From the sequence record PZ402301.1: DNA of 64,000 nt. The stretch is one strand, 5' to 3'. Shown here in pieces: positions 2,450-17,874 of the stretch. Both the position numbers and the translations under genes were made by a program. Within the stretch, counting starts at the first letter, position 1; each line of letters opens with the position of its first letter. The notes beneath the pieces were generated by a model that saw only the letters and a list, made by a program, of their open reading frames with translations, searched no databases and was not told the origin of the DNA. Source of the stretch: a phage.

Positions 2450-3085
2450 TCACAGTTCAGATGCTACGGTGATTACTGCTTCAATGTTTTCTGCAGAGCG
2501 TTTAATGTCAAGATACACATTACCATTTTTAGCGATTTTGCATGACATTCCGATATCAGTAAATTTCTGAATATGATGTTCCATCATTTTGTATCCAAAA
2601 ATTCGCATATTTCCATTGTTGTTAATTTCAAAATTACGAATTCCGTGAGTGCGTTTTTCTAAAATAGCGAGATAGTTACTACGATAAGTTTCAACCTTTT
2701 TAAGAACAAATCCATTTTCATCTAAAAGTTTTAACATGAAGTCTTTATCTTCTTCCATATCGGAAGTAATCTCACGAGCTTTACGGGTTGCTCGTTTTTT
2801 CAGTAGTTCCGGAGCATTTTCCTGTGCGTATAAAGTTGCTGCATTTGAAATAATATCCTGAGCTTCACCAGTAATGATTAATCCATCACCAGATTTCTCC
2901 ACCAGGCCTTTTTTAATCAATACCCCAATATTACTATTAACTACTGCGTTACCTAAATCTGGATGCACCTCACGAACTTCTGCAGCTGTAATGAAATCTT
3001 TCTTAGCAATGGTAATTAAAATCGCAGCAGTTTTTTCATTCAGAACATCGTTAGAAGCTTTGATGATGTAAGTTACTTTAGACAT
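2450..3085 (-). CDS. motA: middle-transcription activator MotA
   Basis: 211 aa starting MSKVTYIIKASNDVLNEKTAAILITIAKKDF, matching recalled T4 MotA in length and N-terminus. Confidence 0.9.
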   Translation of the reverse strand: MSKVTYIIKASNDVLNEKTAAILITIAKKDFITAAEVREVHPDLGNAVVNSNIGVLIKKGLVEKSGDGLIITGEAQDIISNAATLYAQENAPELLKKRATRKAREITSDMEEDKDFMLKLLDENGFVLKKVETYRSNYLAILEKRTHGIRNFEINNNGNMRIFGYKMMEHHIQKFTDIGMSCKIAKNGNVYLDIKRSAENIEAVITVASEL

Positions 3086-3107
3086 TTTCTAATCTCCGTA
3101 ATTCTGT

Positions 3108-3177
3108 ATCAGTAGTTGATAGTTGTATAGTACCACAGTATGCTTTGGTTGTAAACCGTTTTGTGAAAAAAATTTTG
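3108..3177 (-). promoter_or_regulatory. T4-type early promoter upstream of motA
   Basis: Minus strand reads A/T-rich UP region, GTTTAC (-35), 18 nt, TGGTACTATACAACT (-10 block); the same ~65-bp block recurs at about 6973, 34711 and 61548. Confidence 0.6.
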
Positions 3178-3363: not shown

Positions 3364-4688
3364 TTGATTTCCTCTAAATCTTTAGTGTATTCTGTAACTA
3401 CATCAGTAGTTTTCCAATATTCGTTTTCTTCTTTTTTAGCTTTAGCTTCTTCAGCAAGTTTCTTTGCTTCGTCGGAAGTCATATGAAAAATGTTCATTCC
3501 AACTAGTTTATCAACATAAGAAGAATACATATCAATTTTAGAAAGTTCTTCAGTCAGTTCTTTGCGAGTTTTACCTTGTACAACAATTTCACCTGAAATC
3601 ACTTTCTTAATGAAATGTGCCTTGGCAAAGGCTAAACGAAATGCTGATTCAGTTTCTTTGATTTTATTATCAATTCGTTTTTGGACATAAGTTTTACGAA
3701 CTTCAACGAAGTCTTTGATTAAATCAACTACGTTATCGTAAACTTGCAGCTTTCCTTTCTCATTAATGACGGTAATATTCTGAGAACGACGCTCAATCAA
3801 TCCAAAGTCTTTCATAATTTTTGCATGGCGTTCTTCTTCGTTATCGCTCAAAGAATATTCTTTACGGAATTTAACTTTGAAGCCAAAACCATGCTCACCA
3901 CAAGCATCATCCCATGTAATGAAGCCTTTATCTTCAAGCGGGTCTAAGATTTTACTCACGTAAGTTTCACGATCATACTTATACGGAATCTCAGTGATAT
4001 TCATTTGAGTTCGTGAAGTAAACTTGTACGTTCCACGAATTTCATATTGACCGTCAATTTCAACGACTTCACCACGAAATTCTGGGAATTCTACCTTCGG
4101 TTTAGTTACTTTCTTTCCTTGAAGAGCTTGTAGTACAGCTTTCTTGACAGAAGAAACACTATGAGGAAGAATGTAAGTTGCATAACCAGTTGCAATACCG
4201 GAAACGCCATTAAGAAGAACAGTAGGAATAATAGGCAAATAGAAAGCAGGCGGAATGTGTTCTTTATCTTGATGTACCGGAGCATATTCAGTATCTTTAT
4301 ATACGCTATAGAAATTTTTACTTACACGAGCAAAAATATAACGGCTTGCAGCTGCTTTTTGAACGGTACGAGAACCAAAGTTTCCTTGACCATCTAACAA
4401 AGGAAAGTTATTATTCCAAGTATTAGCCATCAAAGCCCCCGCGTCTTGCGCAGAGTTTTCACCATGATGATATCCAAGGTCAGCTACACCACCTGCAATA
4501 GAAGCGAGCTTGTGAAACTTATCTTTATTTCCTCGCGCCAAATCAAGAGCTCGAGCAATAACAAACCGTTGAACTGGCTTAAATCCATCAATCATATTTG
4601 GAATAGCACGATTTTCAACCGTGTACATAGCATAAGCCAATGCTTCATTATCAATGATACTTTTTAAATCGCGATTATTCAGTTGCAT
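3360..4688 (-). CDS. 52: DNA topoisomerase II medium subunit (GyrA-like)
   Basis: 442 aa with GyrA-type N-terminus (AIPNMIDGFKPVQRFV) and the T4 gp52 length. Confidence 0.9.
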   Translation of the reverse strand: MQLNNRDLKSIIDNEALAYAMYTVENRAIPNMIDGFKPVQRFVIARALDLARGNKDKFHKLASIAGGVADLGYHHGENSAQDAGALMANTWNNNFPLLDGQGNFGSRTVQKAAASRYIFARVSKNFYSVYKDTEYAPVHQDKEHIPPAFYLPIIPTVLLNGVSGIATGYATYILPHSVSSVKKAVLQALQGKKVTKPKVEFPEFRGEVVEIDGQYEIRGTYKFTSRTQMNITEIPYKYDRETYVSKILDPLEDKGFITWDDACGEHGFGFKVKFRKEYSLSDNEEERHAKIMKDFGLIERRSQNITVINEKGKLQVYDNVVDLIKDFVEVRKTYVQKRIDNKIKETESAFRLAFAKAHFIKKVISGEIVVQGKTRKELTEELSKIDMYSSYVDKLVGMNIFHMTSDEAKKLAEEAKAKKEENEYWKTTDVVTEYTKDLEEIK

Positions 4689-13664: not shown

Positions 13665-14036
13665 TCACTCAAATTTAATGGCTTGAAGGAGACTAATAAT
13701 TCTCAAGCGACTTCTTTCATCTTTAACTGTAAAAGAAAGAGGGTCACCAGATTTCATAGTGATAGTGCATTCAAAATCAAAATCTTCAGGAACTTCTTCG
13801 AAGAAGTCAAATTCTTCATCATAAATTAGAACATTACTCTGAAAACTGTGAAGAATTTTTCCATCATTTCCAGATGCTGTACTAATCATTGTAACATTAT
13901 GGCCTTTCATATCTTCAACGATAAATTCGCTTGTAGATATTACGGCATTAATAGAACTATTCCTATAAATAGAAGAAAGTAAATATTTCTTTTCTTCACC
14001 TTCGCGAACACGATATTTCTTACCAATTTTAAACAT
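13665..14036 (-). CDS. hypothetical protein
   Basis: Minus-strand ORF; the track start is a GTG, and the ATG two codons in (MFKIGKKYRV) is more likely. Confidence 0.45.
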   Translation of the reverse strand: MFKIGKKYRVREGEEKKYLLSSIYRNSSINAVISTSEFIVEDMKGHNVTMISTASGNDGKILHSFQSNVLIYDEEFDFFEEVPEDFDFECTITMKSGDPLSFTVKDERSRLRIISLLQAIKFE

Positions 14037-14038
14037 AA

Positions 14039-14215
14039 TCACCCTTTAAGTAAGTCGTAAAATCCACCATTCACATGCTTAGGAGCAGAAGGCCGACGAG
14101 TAGACAAACGATGACATTTAGGGCAAACATCATTTTCTCGTTCAGAAATCTTTTTAATTTTTTCATATTCATGCCCACAATCTTCGGATTGGCATTTATA
14201 ATCATACATTGGCAT
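14039..14215 (-). CDS. FmdB-type zinc-ribbon protein (58 aa)
   Basis: Hand-found ORF MPMYDYKCQSEDCGHEYEKI...CPKCHRL: two CxxC pairs in the MPxYxYxC pattern typical of FmdB-family zinc ribbons; overlapped stop/start with both neighbours. Confidence 0.5.
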   Translation of the reverse strand: MPMYDYKCQSEDCGHEYEKIKKISERENDVCPKCHRLSTRRPSAPKHVNGGFYDLLKG

Positions 14216-14217
14216 AA

Positions 14218-14637
14218 TTATTCCTTAAAATGTGCTTTCAACATCTGATACAAGGACCATGCCTGTTCATTATTTTCAATAGTAACTTTCATTACCGGGA
14301 ATTCTGTGAAATCTTCTATTTGTTCTTGCTCTTCCTGCTCTTGTTCTTCAGCAGCCTGATATGGATTTTCCACTTCATCAAAGAACCCAGCTTCGTTAGT
14401 AGAGAGCCAGATAAAGTTTTCATCAAGGATATCACCGCCGGCACAACGTTTGAGTACACCTATGGATGTCATAATTTTAGTAGGACGCCCAAGATAATCA
14501 GCATCTAAAATTTTAAAAGGCTCCATACCTAAACGTCGTGCATAGATTCCGTTATCAGTATGGTCTTTAATAAAATTTTCTTGAGCTTGTTTATTTTTAA
14601 ATTGATACCATTTATTAACTTCAAATTTAATAGCCAT
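14218..14637 (-). CDS. hypothetical acidic protein (139 aa)
   Basis: Minus-strand ORF with an [10 protein letters not shown] acidic low-complexity tract. Confidence 0.45.
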
Positions 14638-14852
14638 TAATAAATTTCCTTCCAGTAAGTTGTACCGTCTTCAGTAATTTCACGAAATACACCATAAATT
14701 GGCTGTTTATCACCGACTTTCTCATACACATAAACAGAAGTCAAGTGAGTAAACTTGCTAGTATGTTCCTTTTGAACTACTACCAAATCTGGATCAAATA
14801 ATACATCTTCAAATTCGTCATTAGTGCAGTTCTGAACAATTTTACGTTTCAT
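14637..14852 (-). CDS. hypothetical protein (71 aa)
   Basis: Minus-strand ORF; stop/start overlap with the downstream gene. Confidence 0.4.
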
Positions 14853-14865
14853 TACAATTTCCTCA

Positions 14866-15135
14866 TTAATTGAACAGTGGAGCGATGCGTTTCAGAAGAG
14901 TAGCAGCACCTTTGGCGAATTTTACATCATGAAAAACAGTTTCTTCTTCCGTTACAACACGAACTTTAATGTTTTCACAATCCCAATTTTTGCGAACAAT
15001 CTTCAAAAGCTGCAGTAAATCTTTACATTCAGCAATATCGATAACACATCCACGAGAATCTTCCATTATCGCACGATAACCATAAGCCATACCATAATCG
15101 TTGAAAGATTGTTCGATGATAATTAAGTTTTCCAT
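14866..15135 (-). CDS. hypothetical protein (about 89 aa)
   Basis: Start placed at the ATG after GGAGAATAAA (MENLIIIEQSF...); the track ORF extends a few codons further. Confidence 0.45.
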   Translation of the reverse strand: MENLIIIEQSFNDYGMAYGYRAIMEDSRGCVIDIAECKDLLQLLKIVRKNWDCENIKVRVVTEEETVFHDVKFAKGAATLLKRIAPLFN

Positions 15136-15232
15136 TTTATTCTCCAAGTTATTTTCTGTATCAGTAGTTGATATTGATATAGTACCATAATCAACTACTG
15201 ATGTATATAGTTTTATGAAAAAATTTTAAACT

Positions 15233-15730
15233 TTATGCACAGCGGGCTTTGCTATAGTGTTTAATCCAACTTTCAGGAATGGCTTTGTATGTTCCTAAAA
15301 ATACCGCGTTGTACAACTTAACGCCATCTTCTACCCATTGATCGGTAATGTATGCACACATAGCGCGAGTACGACGTTTTTGAACAACCCCTTCTTCGTC
15401 TTCGGTAAATTCAAATTCATAAGGAGCGACGAACTTAATAGCTTGACCGAGTTTCCACTTAAAGTCTACGCCTACATGCGAAGTATCAATCGTTTCAATT
15501 CCTTTAGCAGGAACAGCTTTCAAAAAAGCAGACTCAAGAAATTTCGCACGAACATAGCCAAACTGAGGTTTAGACTTTCCATCTTTAGGAATGATACGCA
15601 CTTTTACTTCAGAATCTTCATCTTTAACGCCATGTTTAAGCTGAATGCTTACAATTTCGACCAATTTTCCTGCTGCTTTAGAACGGGATTTATCAGATAC
15701 ACGAGCAATTTCACCAATATTAATAATCAT
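15233..15730 (-). CDS. hypothetical protein, paralog A (165 aa)
   Basis: C-terminal block CAYITDQWVEDGVKLYNAVFLG resembles that of the adjacent ORF 15807..16349. Confidence 0.5.
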   Translation of the reverse strand: MIINIGEIARVSDKSRSKAAGKLVEIVSIQLKHGVKDEDSEVKVRIIPKDGKSKPQFGYVRAKFLESAFLKAVPAKGIETIDTSHVGVDFKWKLGQAIKFVAPYEFEFTEDEEGVVQKRRTRAMCAYITDQWVEDGVKLYNAVFLGTYKAIPESWIKHYSKARCA

Positions 15731-15806
15731 AGTTATCTCTCACTTGTTAAAAAGATTTTATACTCCACGGGACCATTATACTCTGATCCCAAGAGTTTGT
15801 AAACTA

Positions 15807-16349
15807 TTAATTTAAAATAGCTACCACCGCACTACGAGGTACTACACTAAAATCGCCTGCATGCACAACATTCAGAAGTTCAACGCCATCTTCAATCCAT
15901 TGGTCTGTTACCCAACCACAGACCGAAATAAATGGGGTCTTGATAGCTACAGCACGAGTTAAAAGGTCGGTAGGGTCTTGTTCTTCAACTTCTTGGAACA
16001 GGATGAACTCTGCTTCATAAACCAGGATTTTCTCTATTTTGTTATTGTCTAAACGACGACCGTGAATGACGTAAGATTTGGCAAACCAGCCACTTTTGGC
16101 AAATTCTTCAACAATAAATTCGCCTTCGCCAAAAACATCAGTCAAAGTTTTATGGCCGGAAATCAAGGCATTAGTTTTAATTTCAGGTTCAACCAGTTTG
16201 TAGGTTTTGCCGATTTCAATAGCGGTAGTCATAGTAGGTTCCTTAATTTCCAGTGGTTCAACAGGGCATACATAAGTGCTTACAACATCAAAATCAATCA
16301 GTTTAGCTACCGGATTTGGTGTGTATTCAGGATTATAATTAAATTTCAT
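15807..16349 (-). CDS. hypothetical protein, paralog B (180 aa)
   Basis: C-terminal block CGWVTDQWIEDGVELLNVVHAG resembles that of ORF 15233..15730. Confidence 0.5.
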   Translation of the reverse strand: MKFNYNPEYTPNPVAKLIDFDVVSTYVCPVEPLEIKEPTMTTAIEIGKTYKLVEPEIKTNALISGHKTLTDVFGEGEFIVEEFAKSGWFAKSYVIHGRRLDNNKIEKILVYEAEFILFQEVEEQDPTDLLTRAVAIKTPFISVCGWVTDQWIEDGVELLNVVHAGDFSVVPRSAVVAILN

Positions 16350-16351
16350 AT

Positions 16352-16852
16352 TTATCTCATTTCAATAAAATCTACGAGTTCAGCATGCGATTTGCGGAAC
16401 ATTACTTGGTGCCCGCCAATGATAACTTCATCTTCAGGAACTTCATATACAGCAAGATAAAATCCTTTAGAAGATAATTCTTCACGTTCTTCTCGTGTGA
16501 ACCATCTCATCATATCATATTCACTAGCGAAAGCAAAATGATAAAGAGCTATAAACCATCCTGGAATATGATATTCTACTCCAACATAATCTTTCTTGAA
16601 CTTAGTATTAATTACTATATTAGCGTTTTTAACTAATAGTTTATCTTCGTGCGGTAAAGGAATTCTTTTATTATTATCGCTATGATGCATAAAATTAGGT
16701 CTATCATAACCTACGTGTAATAACCACTCTTCGCTCCATGAATCTATTATACTCCTGTACGGCGTTATTTGAACACAAAGATTTCGACGTATTGTTATAG
16801 CATCTTCATGATTAAGAATACTAAAAGATGATTCAACACGATAAATTTTCAT
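16352..16852 (-). CDS. hypothetical protein (about 166 aa)
   Basis: Start placed at the ATG after GAGGATAATAAA (MKIYRVESSF...); the track ORF begins at a TTG inside the promoter. Confidence 0.45.
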   Translation of the reverse strand: MKIYRVESSFSILNHEDAITIRRNLCVQITPYRSIIDSWSEEWLLHVGYDRPNFMHHSDNNKRIPLPHEDKLLVKNANIVINTKFKKDYVGVEYHIPGWFIALYHFAFASEYDMMRWFTREEREELSSKGFYLAVYEVPEDEVIIGGHQVMFRKSHAELVDFIEMR

Positions 16853-16864
16853 TTTATTATCCTC

Positions 16865-16915
16865 AGTAGCTATGATGTTATAATACCACAACTAACCGAG
16901 GAAGTAAACAACTTT
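16865..16915 (-). promoter_or_regulatory. early promoter (GTTTAC, 18 nt, TATTAT)
   Basis: Minus strand GTTTACttcctcggttagttgtggTATTAT; the spacer carries a UCCUC anti-SD complementary to the downstream GAGGA. Confidence 0.55.
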
Positions 16916-17599
16916 TTATCGTTTTGTTGGAAGAGACAGAGGATCGCACTCTTCCTCTGACGGAGCATCTTCAAGACCCATAGCATATCGCAAAGCATAC
17001 TTCATCATCAGGATGTCTTTCGCACAGTCATGAATAGAATCATGTGCAACGAATCCATCTAAAGTTCCCTTTGGAAGAGGACATGTGGTCATATCACGAA
17101 CAAGAAGAAGTGCTTCAATTCTGGTACGAATATCACGCTGATTCCAGAATTTACATGGTTCTAACTTAAACGTGTCAAGCTCATTCTCGGAAACGCCGTT
17201 AAGACGTTGAATATCGCGAATGAGATCGACTAAAATTGGAAAATCAAACGACATTCCACGGCACCAACCCTGAGATTTCCAAGGATCGATATTATGCGCA
17301 TTGATGTAATCATTAAATTTTACAATACCATCGATAGTGCTTACATCTTCATCTGATGGCGCAATATTTTTTCGAGCTTCAGGAGACTGATTTTTCCACC
17401 ATTCGATAGTGCTTTTAGTAAAAAGACGATGTCCTTTTTGGCTTTTTAAATCAAACTTGATTTTAATGCCGCGTGAAACTAATTCATCGAATGTTTCAAC
17501 TACTTCTGGATTAGGGTCAAAGGCAATAACAGCCAAATCAATAACAGCTGCCTTTTCACCGCTTCCCATTGTTTCAAAATCTATAATAAAATCAAACAT
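16916..17599 (-). CDS. dexA: exonuclease A (DnaQ-like 3'-5' exonuclease)
   Basis: 227 aa with the Exo I motif (FDFIIDFETMG) and the T4 DexA length and position. Confidence 0.8.
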   Translation of the reverse strand: MFDFIIDFETMGSGEKAAVIDLAVIAFDPNPEVVETFDELVSRGIKIKFDLKSQKGHRLFTKSTIEWWKNQSPEARKNIAPSDEDVSTIDGIVKFNDYINAHNIDPWKSQGWCRGMSFDFPILVDLIRDIQRLNGVSENELDTFKLEPCKFWNQRDIRTRIEALLLVRDMTTCPLPKGTLDGFVAHDSIHDCAKDILMMKYALRYAMGLEDAPSEEECDPLSLPTKR

Positions 17600-17874
17600 T
17601 AAATTTTCCTCGCTAAATCACGAATTTGACCTACAGTATAATCTTGGATATAAACTTTATTAATGGGCTCATCAATAAATTTTGCCATAGATTCAATATC
17701 TTTTTGTATCTCTTCAAGACTGTATACTATCTTTAAAGCTTTTTCGCGAATAGTAACATTATCAGGTCCTGAATTTTCTTGAATGACAGCTTTAACATTT
17801 GCCATAAGAGATTTAAACTGATGCAAACTTAATTCAATCATTAATAACCGCCTTATAAAGATGGCTAATTTCAC
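17599..17874 (-). CDS. hypothetical protein (91 aa)
   Basis: Minus-strand ORF with stop/start overlap. Confidence 0.4.
   Translation of the reverse strand: MKLAIFIRRLLMIELSLHQFKSLMANVKAVIQENSGPDNVTIREKALKIVYSLEEIQKDIESMAKFIDEPINKVYIQDYTVGQIRDLARKI

What the first reader, a model, noticed from the sequence alone, without database searches (positions are those of the whole stretch)
15233..16349. Adjacent paralog pair sharing a C-terminal TDQW-EDGV block
Two neighbouring genes (165 and 180 aa) end with closely related sequences (CAYITDQWVEDGVKLYNAVFLG versus CGWVTDQWIEDGVELLNVVHAG) while their N-terminal parts differ. This suggests a local duplication with a retained functional module.
Basis: seen in the sequence. 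Interest (0 to 1): 0.35.

Follow-up and report, generated by a model that had tools for sequence, protein, structure and literature searches.

The report
T4 motB and motB.1 paralogs
The two neighbouring genes are motB and motB.1 of a T4-like phage; their shared C-terminal block is real and comes from an old gene duplication, but it was already described in print in 2021.

Summary
The window is a Tequatrovirus (T4-like) genome.

- **Genes.** The 165-aa ORF is MotB (Pfam PF17613, E 3e-98). MotB is the T4 early DNA-binding protein that acts on H-NS. The 180-aa ORF is MotB.1 (phrog_2333, E 3e-85).
- **Shared module.** They share a C-terminal module of about 50 residues (BLASTP 47% over 32 aa, E 1e-10; family profiles 98.3%, E 1.7e-14). 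AlphaFold2 models it as a small five-stranded beta-barrel in both.
- **N-terminal domains.** These show no sequence relationship: a KOW-like barrel in MotB, a GoF-family barrel in MotB.1.
- **Origin.** Related phages fit an old tandem duplication followed by N-terminal domain replacement. Seven of 24 loci hold one KOW+CTD gene; the two inspected in annotated records lie between motB.2 and cef. Fourteen hold the pair and three hold three genes. DNA identity in the shared block is only 55%.
- **Prior work.** Viruses 2021;13:84 already reports the shared CTD, the differing NTDs and the duplication idea. The finding is therefore already known and of low interest.

**Side observation.** The T4 reference record carries one extra G that cuts MotB.1 to 119 aa in the middle of this block. 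The other T4-named records listed (11, plus T4T, RB55 and RB59) lack it, and MT984581 was checked to encode 143 aa. The published heterologous-expression and modelling work on MotB.1 used the truncated form.

The parts
15233..15730 (-). motB gene (165 aa plus stop): the T4 early DNA-binding protein that acts on H-NS
   Evidence: Pfam PF17613, E 3e-98, full length. phrog_1671, E 4e-75. Annotated as motB in the 99%-identical phage vB_EcoM_P8. Aligns to T4 motB.
15527..15730 (-). MotB N-terminal KOW-like barrel (residues 1-68); basic, pI 9.75
   Evidence: AF2 strands at 8-11, 23-30, 41-46, 56-61 and 65-67. Matches Pfam motB positions 1-68. Charge. The KOW assignment is from PMC7827196.
15254..15454 (-). 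MotB copy of the shared C-terminal barrel (residues 93-159), with a hairpin insertion at about residues 104-122
   Evidence: hhalign, 51 aligned columns, 98.3%. AF2 strands at 97-112, 115-134, 137-144, 147-152 and 156-159; block-mean pLDDT 85-95 over residues 91-160.
15775..15803 (-). Sigma-70-type promoter-like site in front of motB (TTTACA, 17-nt spacer, TATAAT; 11 of 12 matches)
   Evidence: The site count in the region is no higher than in shuffles, so this is a consensus match only. The intergenic sequence is nearly identical in T4.
15807..16349 (-). motB.1 gene (180 aa plus stop). Its N-terminal domain differs from the T4 allele. The start lies 2 nt after the motB.2 stop.
   Evidence: phrog_2333, E 2.6e-85 over residues 1-180. 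232 database homologues. BLASTP against intact T4 MotB.1 aligns only the last 79 residues, at 65% identity.
16227..16349 (-). MotB.1 leader (residues 1-41), predicted disordered. It contains the conserved motif IDFDVVSTYVCPVEPL.
   Evidence: pLDDT below 50. The motif recurs between the N- and C-terminal domains in other family members.
15984..16226 (-). MotB.1 N-terminal GoF-family (LSm/SH3-like) barrel (residues 42-122)
   Evidence: phrog_622 (the GoF family), E 4e-5. AF2 pLDDT 76-88. LSm-like assignment for T4 MotB.1 is from PMC12152347.
15816..15965 (-). MotB.1 copy of the shared C-terminal barrel (residues 129-178); acidic
   Evidence: hhalign. AF2 strands at 133-137, 142-153, 156-163, 166-171 and 175-179. 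pI 4.2 for residues 123-180.

Best explanation
These are motB and motB.1, two early genes in the dispensable dexA-to-gene-39 region of a T4-like phage.

**Shown here.** Both proteins end in the same small beta-barrel of about 50 residues. Its core motif is G-[WFY]-[VI]-[TS]-D-Q-W-[VI]-E-D-G-V-x-L-x-N-x-V. The N-terminal domains differ: a basic KOW-like barrel in MotB, and an acidic GoF-family barrel preceded by a disordered leader in MotB.1.

**Inferred from comparative data.** The pair arose from an old tandem duplication of a single KOW+CTD gene. In the upstream copy the KOW barrel was then replaced by a GoF-family barrel.

**From the literature.** MotB binds host DNA and modified T4 DNA without sequence specificity. 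It co-purifies with H-NS and StpA, changes how H-NS sits on DNA, and doubles T4 burst size.

**Inferred mechanism, low certainty.** The shared barrel is a common targeting or association module. It would bind the same partner in both proteins or let them self-associate or associate with each other. The N-terminal barrel would set what each protein does. The conserved face is acidic and MotB.1 as a whole is acidic (pI 4.7). MotB's non-specific DNA binding is therefore more likely to come from its basic N-terminal barrel than from the shared block.
For: **Identity.** Pfam and PHROG matches. The region is 99% identical to a Tequatrovirus record annotated with motB. Gene order matches T4: cef, motB, motB.1, motB.2, dexA, dda.

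**Homology of the module.** BLASTP E 1e-10; hhalign 98.3%.

**Same fold.** AF2 gives the same run of five strands with a short helix before the last strand in both CTDs. Both whole models retrieve the same classes of tandem small-barrel PDB entries: 53BP1 tandem Tudor, SAWADEE and DSIF KOW6-7. The MotB.1 model also matches MotB-like and KOW-annotated phage proteins in BFVD (E 2e-6 and 4e-5).

**Duplication history.** Of 24 IMG/VR loci, 14 hold pairs, 3 hold triples and 7 hold a single KOW+CTD gene. In Edwardsiella phage PEi20 that single motB lies between motB.2 and cef. Single-copy KOW proteins carry a MotB.1-type CTD. DNA identity in the block is 55%.

**Restricted distribution.** A profile search of 1.84 billion representatives found 34 hits, 23 of them at E 1e-10 or better.

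**Charges.** MotB pI 9.2; its N-terminal domain 9.75; MotB.1 4.66; its CTD 4.2.

**MotB biology.** PMC6070864 and PMC7827196.
Against: - Nothing tested here shows what the shared barrel binds. No domain-level experiments were found in the papers read.
- The published HHpred analysis calls the MotB CTD an OB-fold that could itself bind DNA. MotB's own CTD is mildly basic (pI 8.6), so a DNA-binding role for it is not excluded.
- Structural matches to PDB entries are weak (best E 1.5e-3 and 7e-3, TM 0.2-0.4).
- The model coordinates could not be superposed.
- A motB.1 deletion in T4 showed no change in burst size or latent period.
- The direction of change (which CTD type is ancestral) rests on a midpoint-rooted neighbour-joining tree of about 60 columns.
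Confidence: 0.9

Rival explanations
1. The C-terminal similarity is a chance or low-complexity match between unrelated small phage proteins.
For: Only 32 residues align by BLASTP, and the rest of the proteins do not align.
Against: E 1e-10 pairwise. The Pfam motB model scores above its curated cut-off on the 180-aa protein. phrog_1671 gives E 3e-17. hhalign gives 98.3% over 51 columns. The motif is invariant across both families.
Confidence: 0.01
2. The module was not inherited through a whole-gene duplication. Only the 3' end of motB was copied, or recombined, onto a pre-existing goF-family gene (partial duplication or domain shuffling).
For: The region holds several GoF-family genes that could have acted as recipients: GoF at 14218-14637 and a 125-aa paralogue at 13665-14042. 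The MotB.1 family shows heavy module shuffling: one or two N-terminal barrels, extra N-terminal domains, and a linker motif in different positions.
Against: KOW proteins carrying a MotB.1-type CTD exist as the only copy in three groups of related phages; in PEi20 the gene sits between motB.2 and cef. The leader of the 180-aa protein carries the linker motif that sits between KOW and CTD in those proteins. That fits a full copy whose KOW barrel was later lost. The two routes differ only in the order of events, and the present data cannot fully separate them.
Confidence: 0.25
3. The shared CTD is an OB-fold nucleic-acid-binding domain, as proposed in print. Both proteins would bind nucleic acid through it.
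For: Published HHpred hits of MotB residues 69-149 to the eIF5A OB domain. MotB binds DNA tightly. MotB's CTD is mildly basic.
Against: In MotB.1 the module is only about 50 residues and is modelled as five consecutive strands with a short helix before the last one, as in SH3-like barrels. Tandem Tudor, SAWADEE, Agenet and KOW entries fill most of the top 50 PDB matches of both models, and no entry described as an OB-fold protein is listed. The MotB.1 CTD is strongly acidic (pI 4.2), as is the conserved D-Q-W-x-E-D-G face. The structural matches are weak, so this is not decisive.
Confidence: 0.2

Closest known systems
T4 MotB (Pfam PF17613, phrog_1671); Patterson-West et al. 2018 (PMC6070864) and the 2021 Viruses paper (PMC7827196)
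   Same: The 165-aa protein is an orthologue. It matches the model over its full length, has the same gene position, and aligns to T4 MotB along its length apart from a 3-residue insertion and substitutions in the CTD hairpin region.
   Different: Three extra residues in the CTD hairpin relative to T4 MotB (165 against 162 aa). Otherwise nothing notable.
T4 MotB.1 (phrog_2333); described as sharing MotB's CTD in PMC7827196, and as having an LSm-like N-terminal domain in PMC12152347
   Same: Same position immediately upstream of motB. The last 79 residues are 65% identical, including the CTD. Both match the same PHROG family.
   Different: The N-terminal domain is a divergent allele not alignable to T4's by BLASTP. 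There is also a 41-residue leader. It probably falls in the paper's second group of MotB.1-like proteins with 'another distinct NTD motif'. The T4 reference protein is 119 aa because of one extra G. Other T4 records encode 143 aa.
Tandem small beta-barrel readers (53BP1 and UHRF1 tandem Tudor, SAWADEE, Spt5/DSIF KOW6-KOW7)
   Same: Two consecutive five-stranded barrels. These are the best PDB matches for both AF2 models.
   Different: No sequence similarity. Foldseek E-values reach only 1e-3 to 1e-2 with TM 0.2-0.4. No evidence of an aromatic cage or of histone-like ligands. This is a resemblance of fold class only.

Membership tests
MotB (Pfam PF17613) | Full-length match to the family model above the curated cut-off | tested here: met
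   165-aa protein: 326.7 bits against a cut-off of 25, residues 1-163 on model positions 1-160.
MotB (Pfam PF17613) | Does the 180-aa protein match over the whole model, including the KOW-like N-terminal half? | tested here: not met
   Only residues 142-175 match, on model positions 120-153 (34.1 bits). hhalign of the KOW N-terminal profile against the MotB.1 N-terminal profile gives 0.85% probability. It is a paralogue sharing one domain, not a MotB.
MotB (Pfam PF17613) | Conserved genomic position between cef and dexA in Tevenvirinae | tested here: met
   Order in the window is cef, 93-aa ORF, motB, motB.1, motB.2, dexA, dda, as in T4.
MotB (Pfam PF17613) | Non-specific DNA binding, co-purification with H-NS and StpA, toxicity in E. 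coli | not testable with these tools
   Known for T4 MotB only. Inferred for the close orthologue in this window.
MotB.1 (phrog_2333) | Full-length match to the family profile | tested here: met
   E 2.6e-85, residues 1-180 on profile positions 1-210.
MotB.1 (phrog_2333) | GoF-family (LSm/SH3-like) N-terminal barrel | tested here: met
   phrog_622 (the family of GoF) matches residues 44-125 at E 4e-5. AF2 models a compact domain at residues 42-120 with pLDDT 76-88. Support from sequence is weak but consistent with PMC12152347.
MotB.1 (phrog_2333) | MotB-type C-terminal block, intact | tested here: met
   All 25 invariant columns of the family alignment are present.
OB-fold (published assignment of the shared CTD) | Five-stranded Greek-key barrel, usually with a helix between strands 3 and 4, and similarity to known OB domains | tested here: inconclusive
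   AF2 secondary structure shows consecutive hairpins with a short helix before strand 5. No entry described as an OB-fold protein is listed among the top 50 PDB matches. However, matches are weak and topology could not be inspected in 3D.

The most novel reading that the evidence does not exclude
MotB.1 may not be a redundant relic. It could be an acidic partner or antagonist of MotB. In this reading the shared barrel lets it pair with MotB or compete for MotB's host target (H-NS/StpA or the nucleoid), and so tunes nucleoid compaction. Its function would have been missed because the only overexpression and modelling work used the 119-aa form from the T4 reference, which lacks half of the shared barrel.
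Probability: 0.1. Interest if true: 0.5.

Novelty: already known. Interest (0 to 1): 0.15.

Why it matters
The finding itself adds little. The shared CTD of MotB and MotB.1, their differing N-terminal domains and the duplication idea are all in print (Viruses 2021;13:84).

Three things here may help people who work on these proteins:

1. **Single-copy relatives.** KOW+CTD genes in three groups of related phages (Kanagawavirus PEi20, Enterobacter CIP9-like, Klebsiella F48-like) point to the likely ancestral state. They show that the MotB.1-type CTD once sat on a KOW barrel.
2. **Fold of the module.** It looks like an SH3-type barrel and is acidic in MotB.1. That argues against it being the general DNA-binding surface.
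3. **Broken reference records.** The T4 and RB69 reference records both break motB.1 inside this module. Experiments based on the 119-aa T4 annotation therefore tested a truncated protein.

Tried and rejected
- **Solved structures by sequence.** No relevant hit for MotB, for MotB.1 or for the CTD profile, even at E 10.
- **Pfam on isolated domains at E 10.** Nothing beyond PF17613, plus sub-threshold hits for the MotB.1 N-terminal domain (DUF7632, Rrp44_CSD1, DUF4177).
- **Internal duplication.** Profile-profile tests asked whether the N-terminal barrels are related to each other or to the CTD. All were negative (probability 1% or less).
- **Recent duplication or gene conversion.** Rejected. 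The block is 55% identical in DNA and the longest exact run is 12 nt.
- **Programmed +1 frameshift at the T4 extra-G site.** Considered and rejected, because the other T4-named records listed, plus T4T, RB55 and RB59, lack the base.
- **Large repeat proteins among the profile hits.** Hits of 600-1400 aa with E 1e-7 to 1e-3 match in 4-7 short stretches. The one read (P0307) is a tandem repeat protein; the others were not read. All were treated as spurious.
- **Son et al. 2021 (NAR, PMC8450097).** Not held in the library, so it could not be read.
- **Limits of the tools.** The two models could not be superposed, and a MotB-MotB.1 complex could not be predicted.

Full report
**What is there**

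The window is a Tequatrovirus genome. Positions 14600-17700 are 99% identical to Escherichia phage vB_EcoM_P8, and 563 phage records match the stretch. All relevant genes lie on the minus strand. Going up in window coordinates the order is cef (14637-14852), a 93-aa ORF, the 165-aa ORF (15233-15730), the 180-aa ORF (15807-16349), motB.2 (16352-16891), dexA, two small ORFs and dda. T4 has the same order.

The 165-aa protein is MotB (Pfam PF17613, 326.7 bits, full length; phrog_1671). The 180-aa protein is the counterpart of T4 MotB.1 (phrog_2333, E 2.6e-85).

**Check of the observation**

The quoted strings are present. BLASTP between the two proteins gives one significant segment of 32 residues with no gaps. 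It is 47% identical and 72% similar, with E 1e-10.

The Pfam motB model hits the 180-aa protein only at residues 142-175, above the curated cut-off. I collected homologues of both proteins and aligned each family (A2 and A3). Profile-profile comparison gives 98.3% probability and E 1.7e-14 over 51 columns. It pairs MotB.1 129-178 with MotB 93-159, and MotB carries an extra hairpin.

The columns shared by both families are L, D, W, E, G, L, N and V of the motif G-[WFY]-[VI]-[TS]-D-Q-W-[VI]-E-D-G-V-x-L-x-N-x-V. The N-terminal domains show no sequence relationship to each other or to the CTD. The window holds exactly two copies of the module.

**Structure**

AlphaFold2 with these alignments gives the following models.

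| Protein | Mean pLDDT | N-terminal part | Linker or leader | C-terminal barrel |
|---|---|---|---|---|
| MotB | 80 | five-stranded barrel, residues 8-67 | disordered linker, 69-82 | strands 97-112, 115-134, 137-144, 147-152, 156-159 |
| MotB.1 | 72 | compact domain, residues 42-120 | disordered leader, 1-41 | strands 133-137, 142-153, 156-163, 166-171, 175-179 |

Both CTDs show the same run of strands with a short helix before the last strand. That pattern is typical of SH3-like barrels.

Both whole models retrieve the same classes of PDB entries: tandem Tudor domains, SAWADEE and the KOW6-KOW7 pair of DSIF. The E-values reach only 1e-3 to 1e-2. In the viral structure library the MotB.1 model matches other MotB.1 proteins. 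More weakly, it matches MotB-like and KOW-annotated proteins.

The published HHpred assignment of the MotB CTD as an OB-fold is not supported by these models. The evidence is too weak to overturn it.

**Distribution and history**

A profile of the module searched against 1.84 billion representative proteins finds 34 hits, 23 of them at E 1e-10 or better. All those read are small proteins that look phage-derived, apart from one repeat protein treated as spurious.

In 24 IMG/VR loci the arrangement is as follows:

- 14 loci hold the pair, with motB.1 directly upstream of motB.
- 3 loci hold three genes: motB.1, motB and a second motB, as in RB69.
- 7 loci hold a single gene with a KOW N-terminal domain plus the CTD.

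The single-gene loci belong to phages close to Klebsiella phage vB_Kpn_F48, Enterobacter phage CIP9 and Edwardsiella phage PEi20. In PEi20 the single motB sits between motB.2 and cef.

A neighbour-joining tree of the CTDs separates a MotB type (FKWxLG...KLYNIVF...PES) from a MotB.1 type (DPTDLL...ELLNVVH...PRS). The single-copy KOW proteins carry the MotB.1 type.

A short motif, [IVF]-D-x-D-[VI]-x-S-x-Y-x-x-P, lies in the linker of those KOW proteins. It lies in front of the N-terminal barrel in the 180-aa protein, and between the N-terminal domain and the CTD in 166-aa MotB.1 forms.

Within the window the two copies of the block are 55% identical in DNA, with 12 of 31 third codon positions identical.

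The simplest reading has three steps: one ancestral KOW+CTD gene, an old tandem duplication, then replacement of the KOW barrel in the upstream copy by a GoF-family barrel. The region supplies several GoF-family genes. A route through partial duplication and fusion is not excluded.

**Function**

From the literature, T4 MotB binds unmodified and glucosyl-hydroxymethylated DNA without sequence specificity. It is toxic in E. coli, co-purifies with H-NS and StpA, changes H-NS footprints and doubles burst size. No function is known for MotB.1, and a deletion has no effect on burst size or latent period.

Here MotB is basic (pI 9.2; N-terminal domain 9.75). MotB.1 is acidic (pI 4.66; CTD 4.2). I infer that the shared barrel is a common association or targeting module rather than the non-specific DNA-binding surface. 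I also infer that the N-terminal barrels set what each protein acts on. This step is inference only.

**Comparison with what is known**

The shared CTD, the differing N-terminal domains, the existence of several N-terminal domain categories and the duplication hypothesis are all stated in Viruses 2021;13:84. The LSm-like N-terminal domain of MotB.1 is described in Comput Struct Biotechnol J 2025;27:2051. The finding is therefore already known.

The window's MotB.1 is one of the alleles whose N-terminal domain does not align with T4's by BLASTP.

**Side observation**

The T4 reference (AF158101/NC_000866) has one extra G at position 346 of motB.1: ATTGGAAG instead of ATTGAAG. This ends the protein at 119 aa, right after T-D-Q-W-I.

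Thirteen other records align 509 bases of the reference to 508 at 99.8% identity: eleven named T4, plus RB55 and RB59. T4T aligns the same way at 99.6%. MT984581 annotates a 143-aa protein. The repaired 143-aa sequence is found exactly on 256 contigs, against 2 contigs for the 119-aa form.

The 2025 study had motB.1 synthesised commercially, cites NC_000866.4 for its T4 coordinates, and reports a 13.8-kDa protein. Its expression constructs and models therefore very probably lacked half of the shared barrel.

The RB69 reference has two extra T bases in the same block. This explains the '29-aa peptide' listed as a separate category in the 2021 paper.

**Verdict**

The feature is real and correctly interpreted, and it is already published. 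Interest is low.

Noticed in passing
L001 (T4 NC_000866) 2792-3151, equivalent to window 15807-16349: The T4 reference motB.1 (119 aa, '13.8 kDa') is truncated inside the shared block by one extra G. Eleven other T4-named records plus RB55 and RB59 align 509 to 508 bases (T4T likewise, at 99.6%), and MT984581 encodes 143 aa. The exact 143-aa protein occurs on 256 contigs. Published MotB.1 overexpression and AlphaFold work used the 119-aa form.
   Followed up: yes
L029 (RB69 NC_004928) 3377-3873: The RB69 reference motB.1 is broken by two extra T bases within the CTD-coding block, leaving a 132-aa ORF and an annotated 29-aa ORF. An RB69-like IMG/VR contig (L018) has the gene intact. Both old reference records have indels in the same 60-nt stretch. 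These could be sequencing errors, or mutations selected when a toxic gene was cloned. Which of the two applies was not resolved.
   Followed up: partly
window 16227-16349 (MotB.1 residues 1-41); also P0136, P0148 and P0297-P0305: A short conserved motif ([IVF]-D-x-D-[VI]-x-S-x-Y-x-x-P) lies in predicted disordered sequence and changes position between family members. It sits before the N-terminal barrel here, between the N-terminal domain and the CTD in 166-aa MotB.1 forms, and in the KOW-CTD linker of single-copy relatives. It may be a short linear binding motif.
   Followed up: partly
P0153, P0155, P0158 (251 aa); P0083, P0084 (248 aa); L006, L007, L013, L017, L019: Some MotB.1 relatives carry two tandem GoF-like barrels, or an extra N-terminal domain of about 70 residues, in front of the same CTD. 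The CTD is the constant part of a modular family.
   Followed up: partly
P0308 (43 aa): A natural fusion of the first 16 or so residues of MotB.2 to the last 28 residues of MotB.1 (MKIYRVESSFSILDYEDGVELLNVVH...). This implies a deletion of nearly all of motB.2 and motB.1 at a short YED/IED microhomology.
   Followed up: no
window 13665-14042 (-) and 14218-14637 (-): GoF and a 125-aa neighbour both belong to phrog_622. The 125-aa protein also weakly matches the MotB.1 N-terminal profile (E 7.5e-6). This region therefore holds three GoF-family barrels.
   Followed up: partly
window 14866-15147 (-): A 93-aa ORF (phrog_3720, unknown function) lies between cef and motB. T4 has only a 170-nt gap there.
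   Followed up: no
window 15160-15202: A perfect 13-nt inverted repeat (ATCAGTAGTTGAT ... ATCAACTACTGAT, 17-nt loop) lies just downstream of motB with no T-run after it. It is identical in T4. It may be an RNA hairpin or processing site.
   Followed up: no
L021 3661-4177: One metagenomic T4-like contig has motB.1 split by an extra A in an A-run in the linker. This may be a real frameshift or an assembly error.
   Followed up: partly
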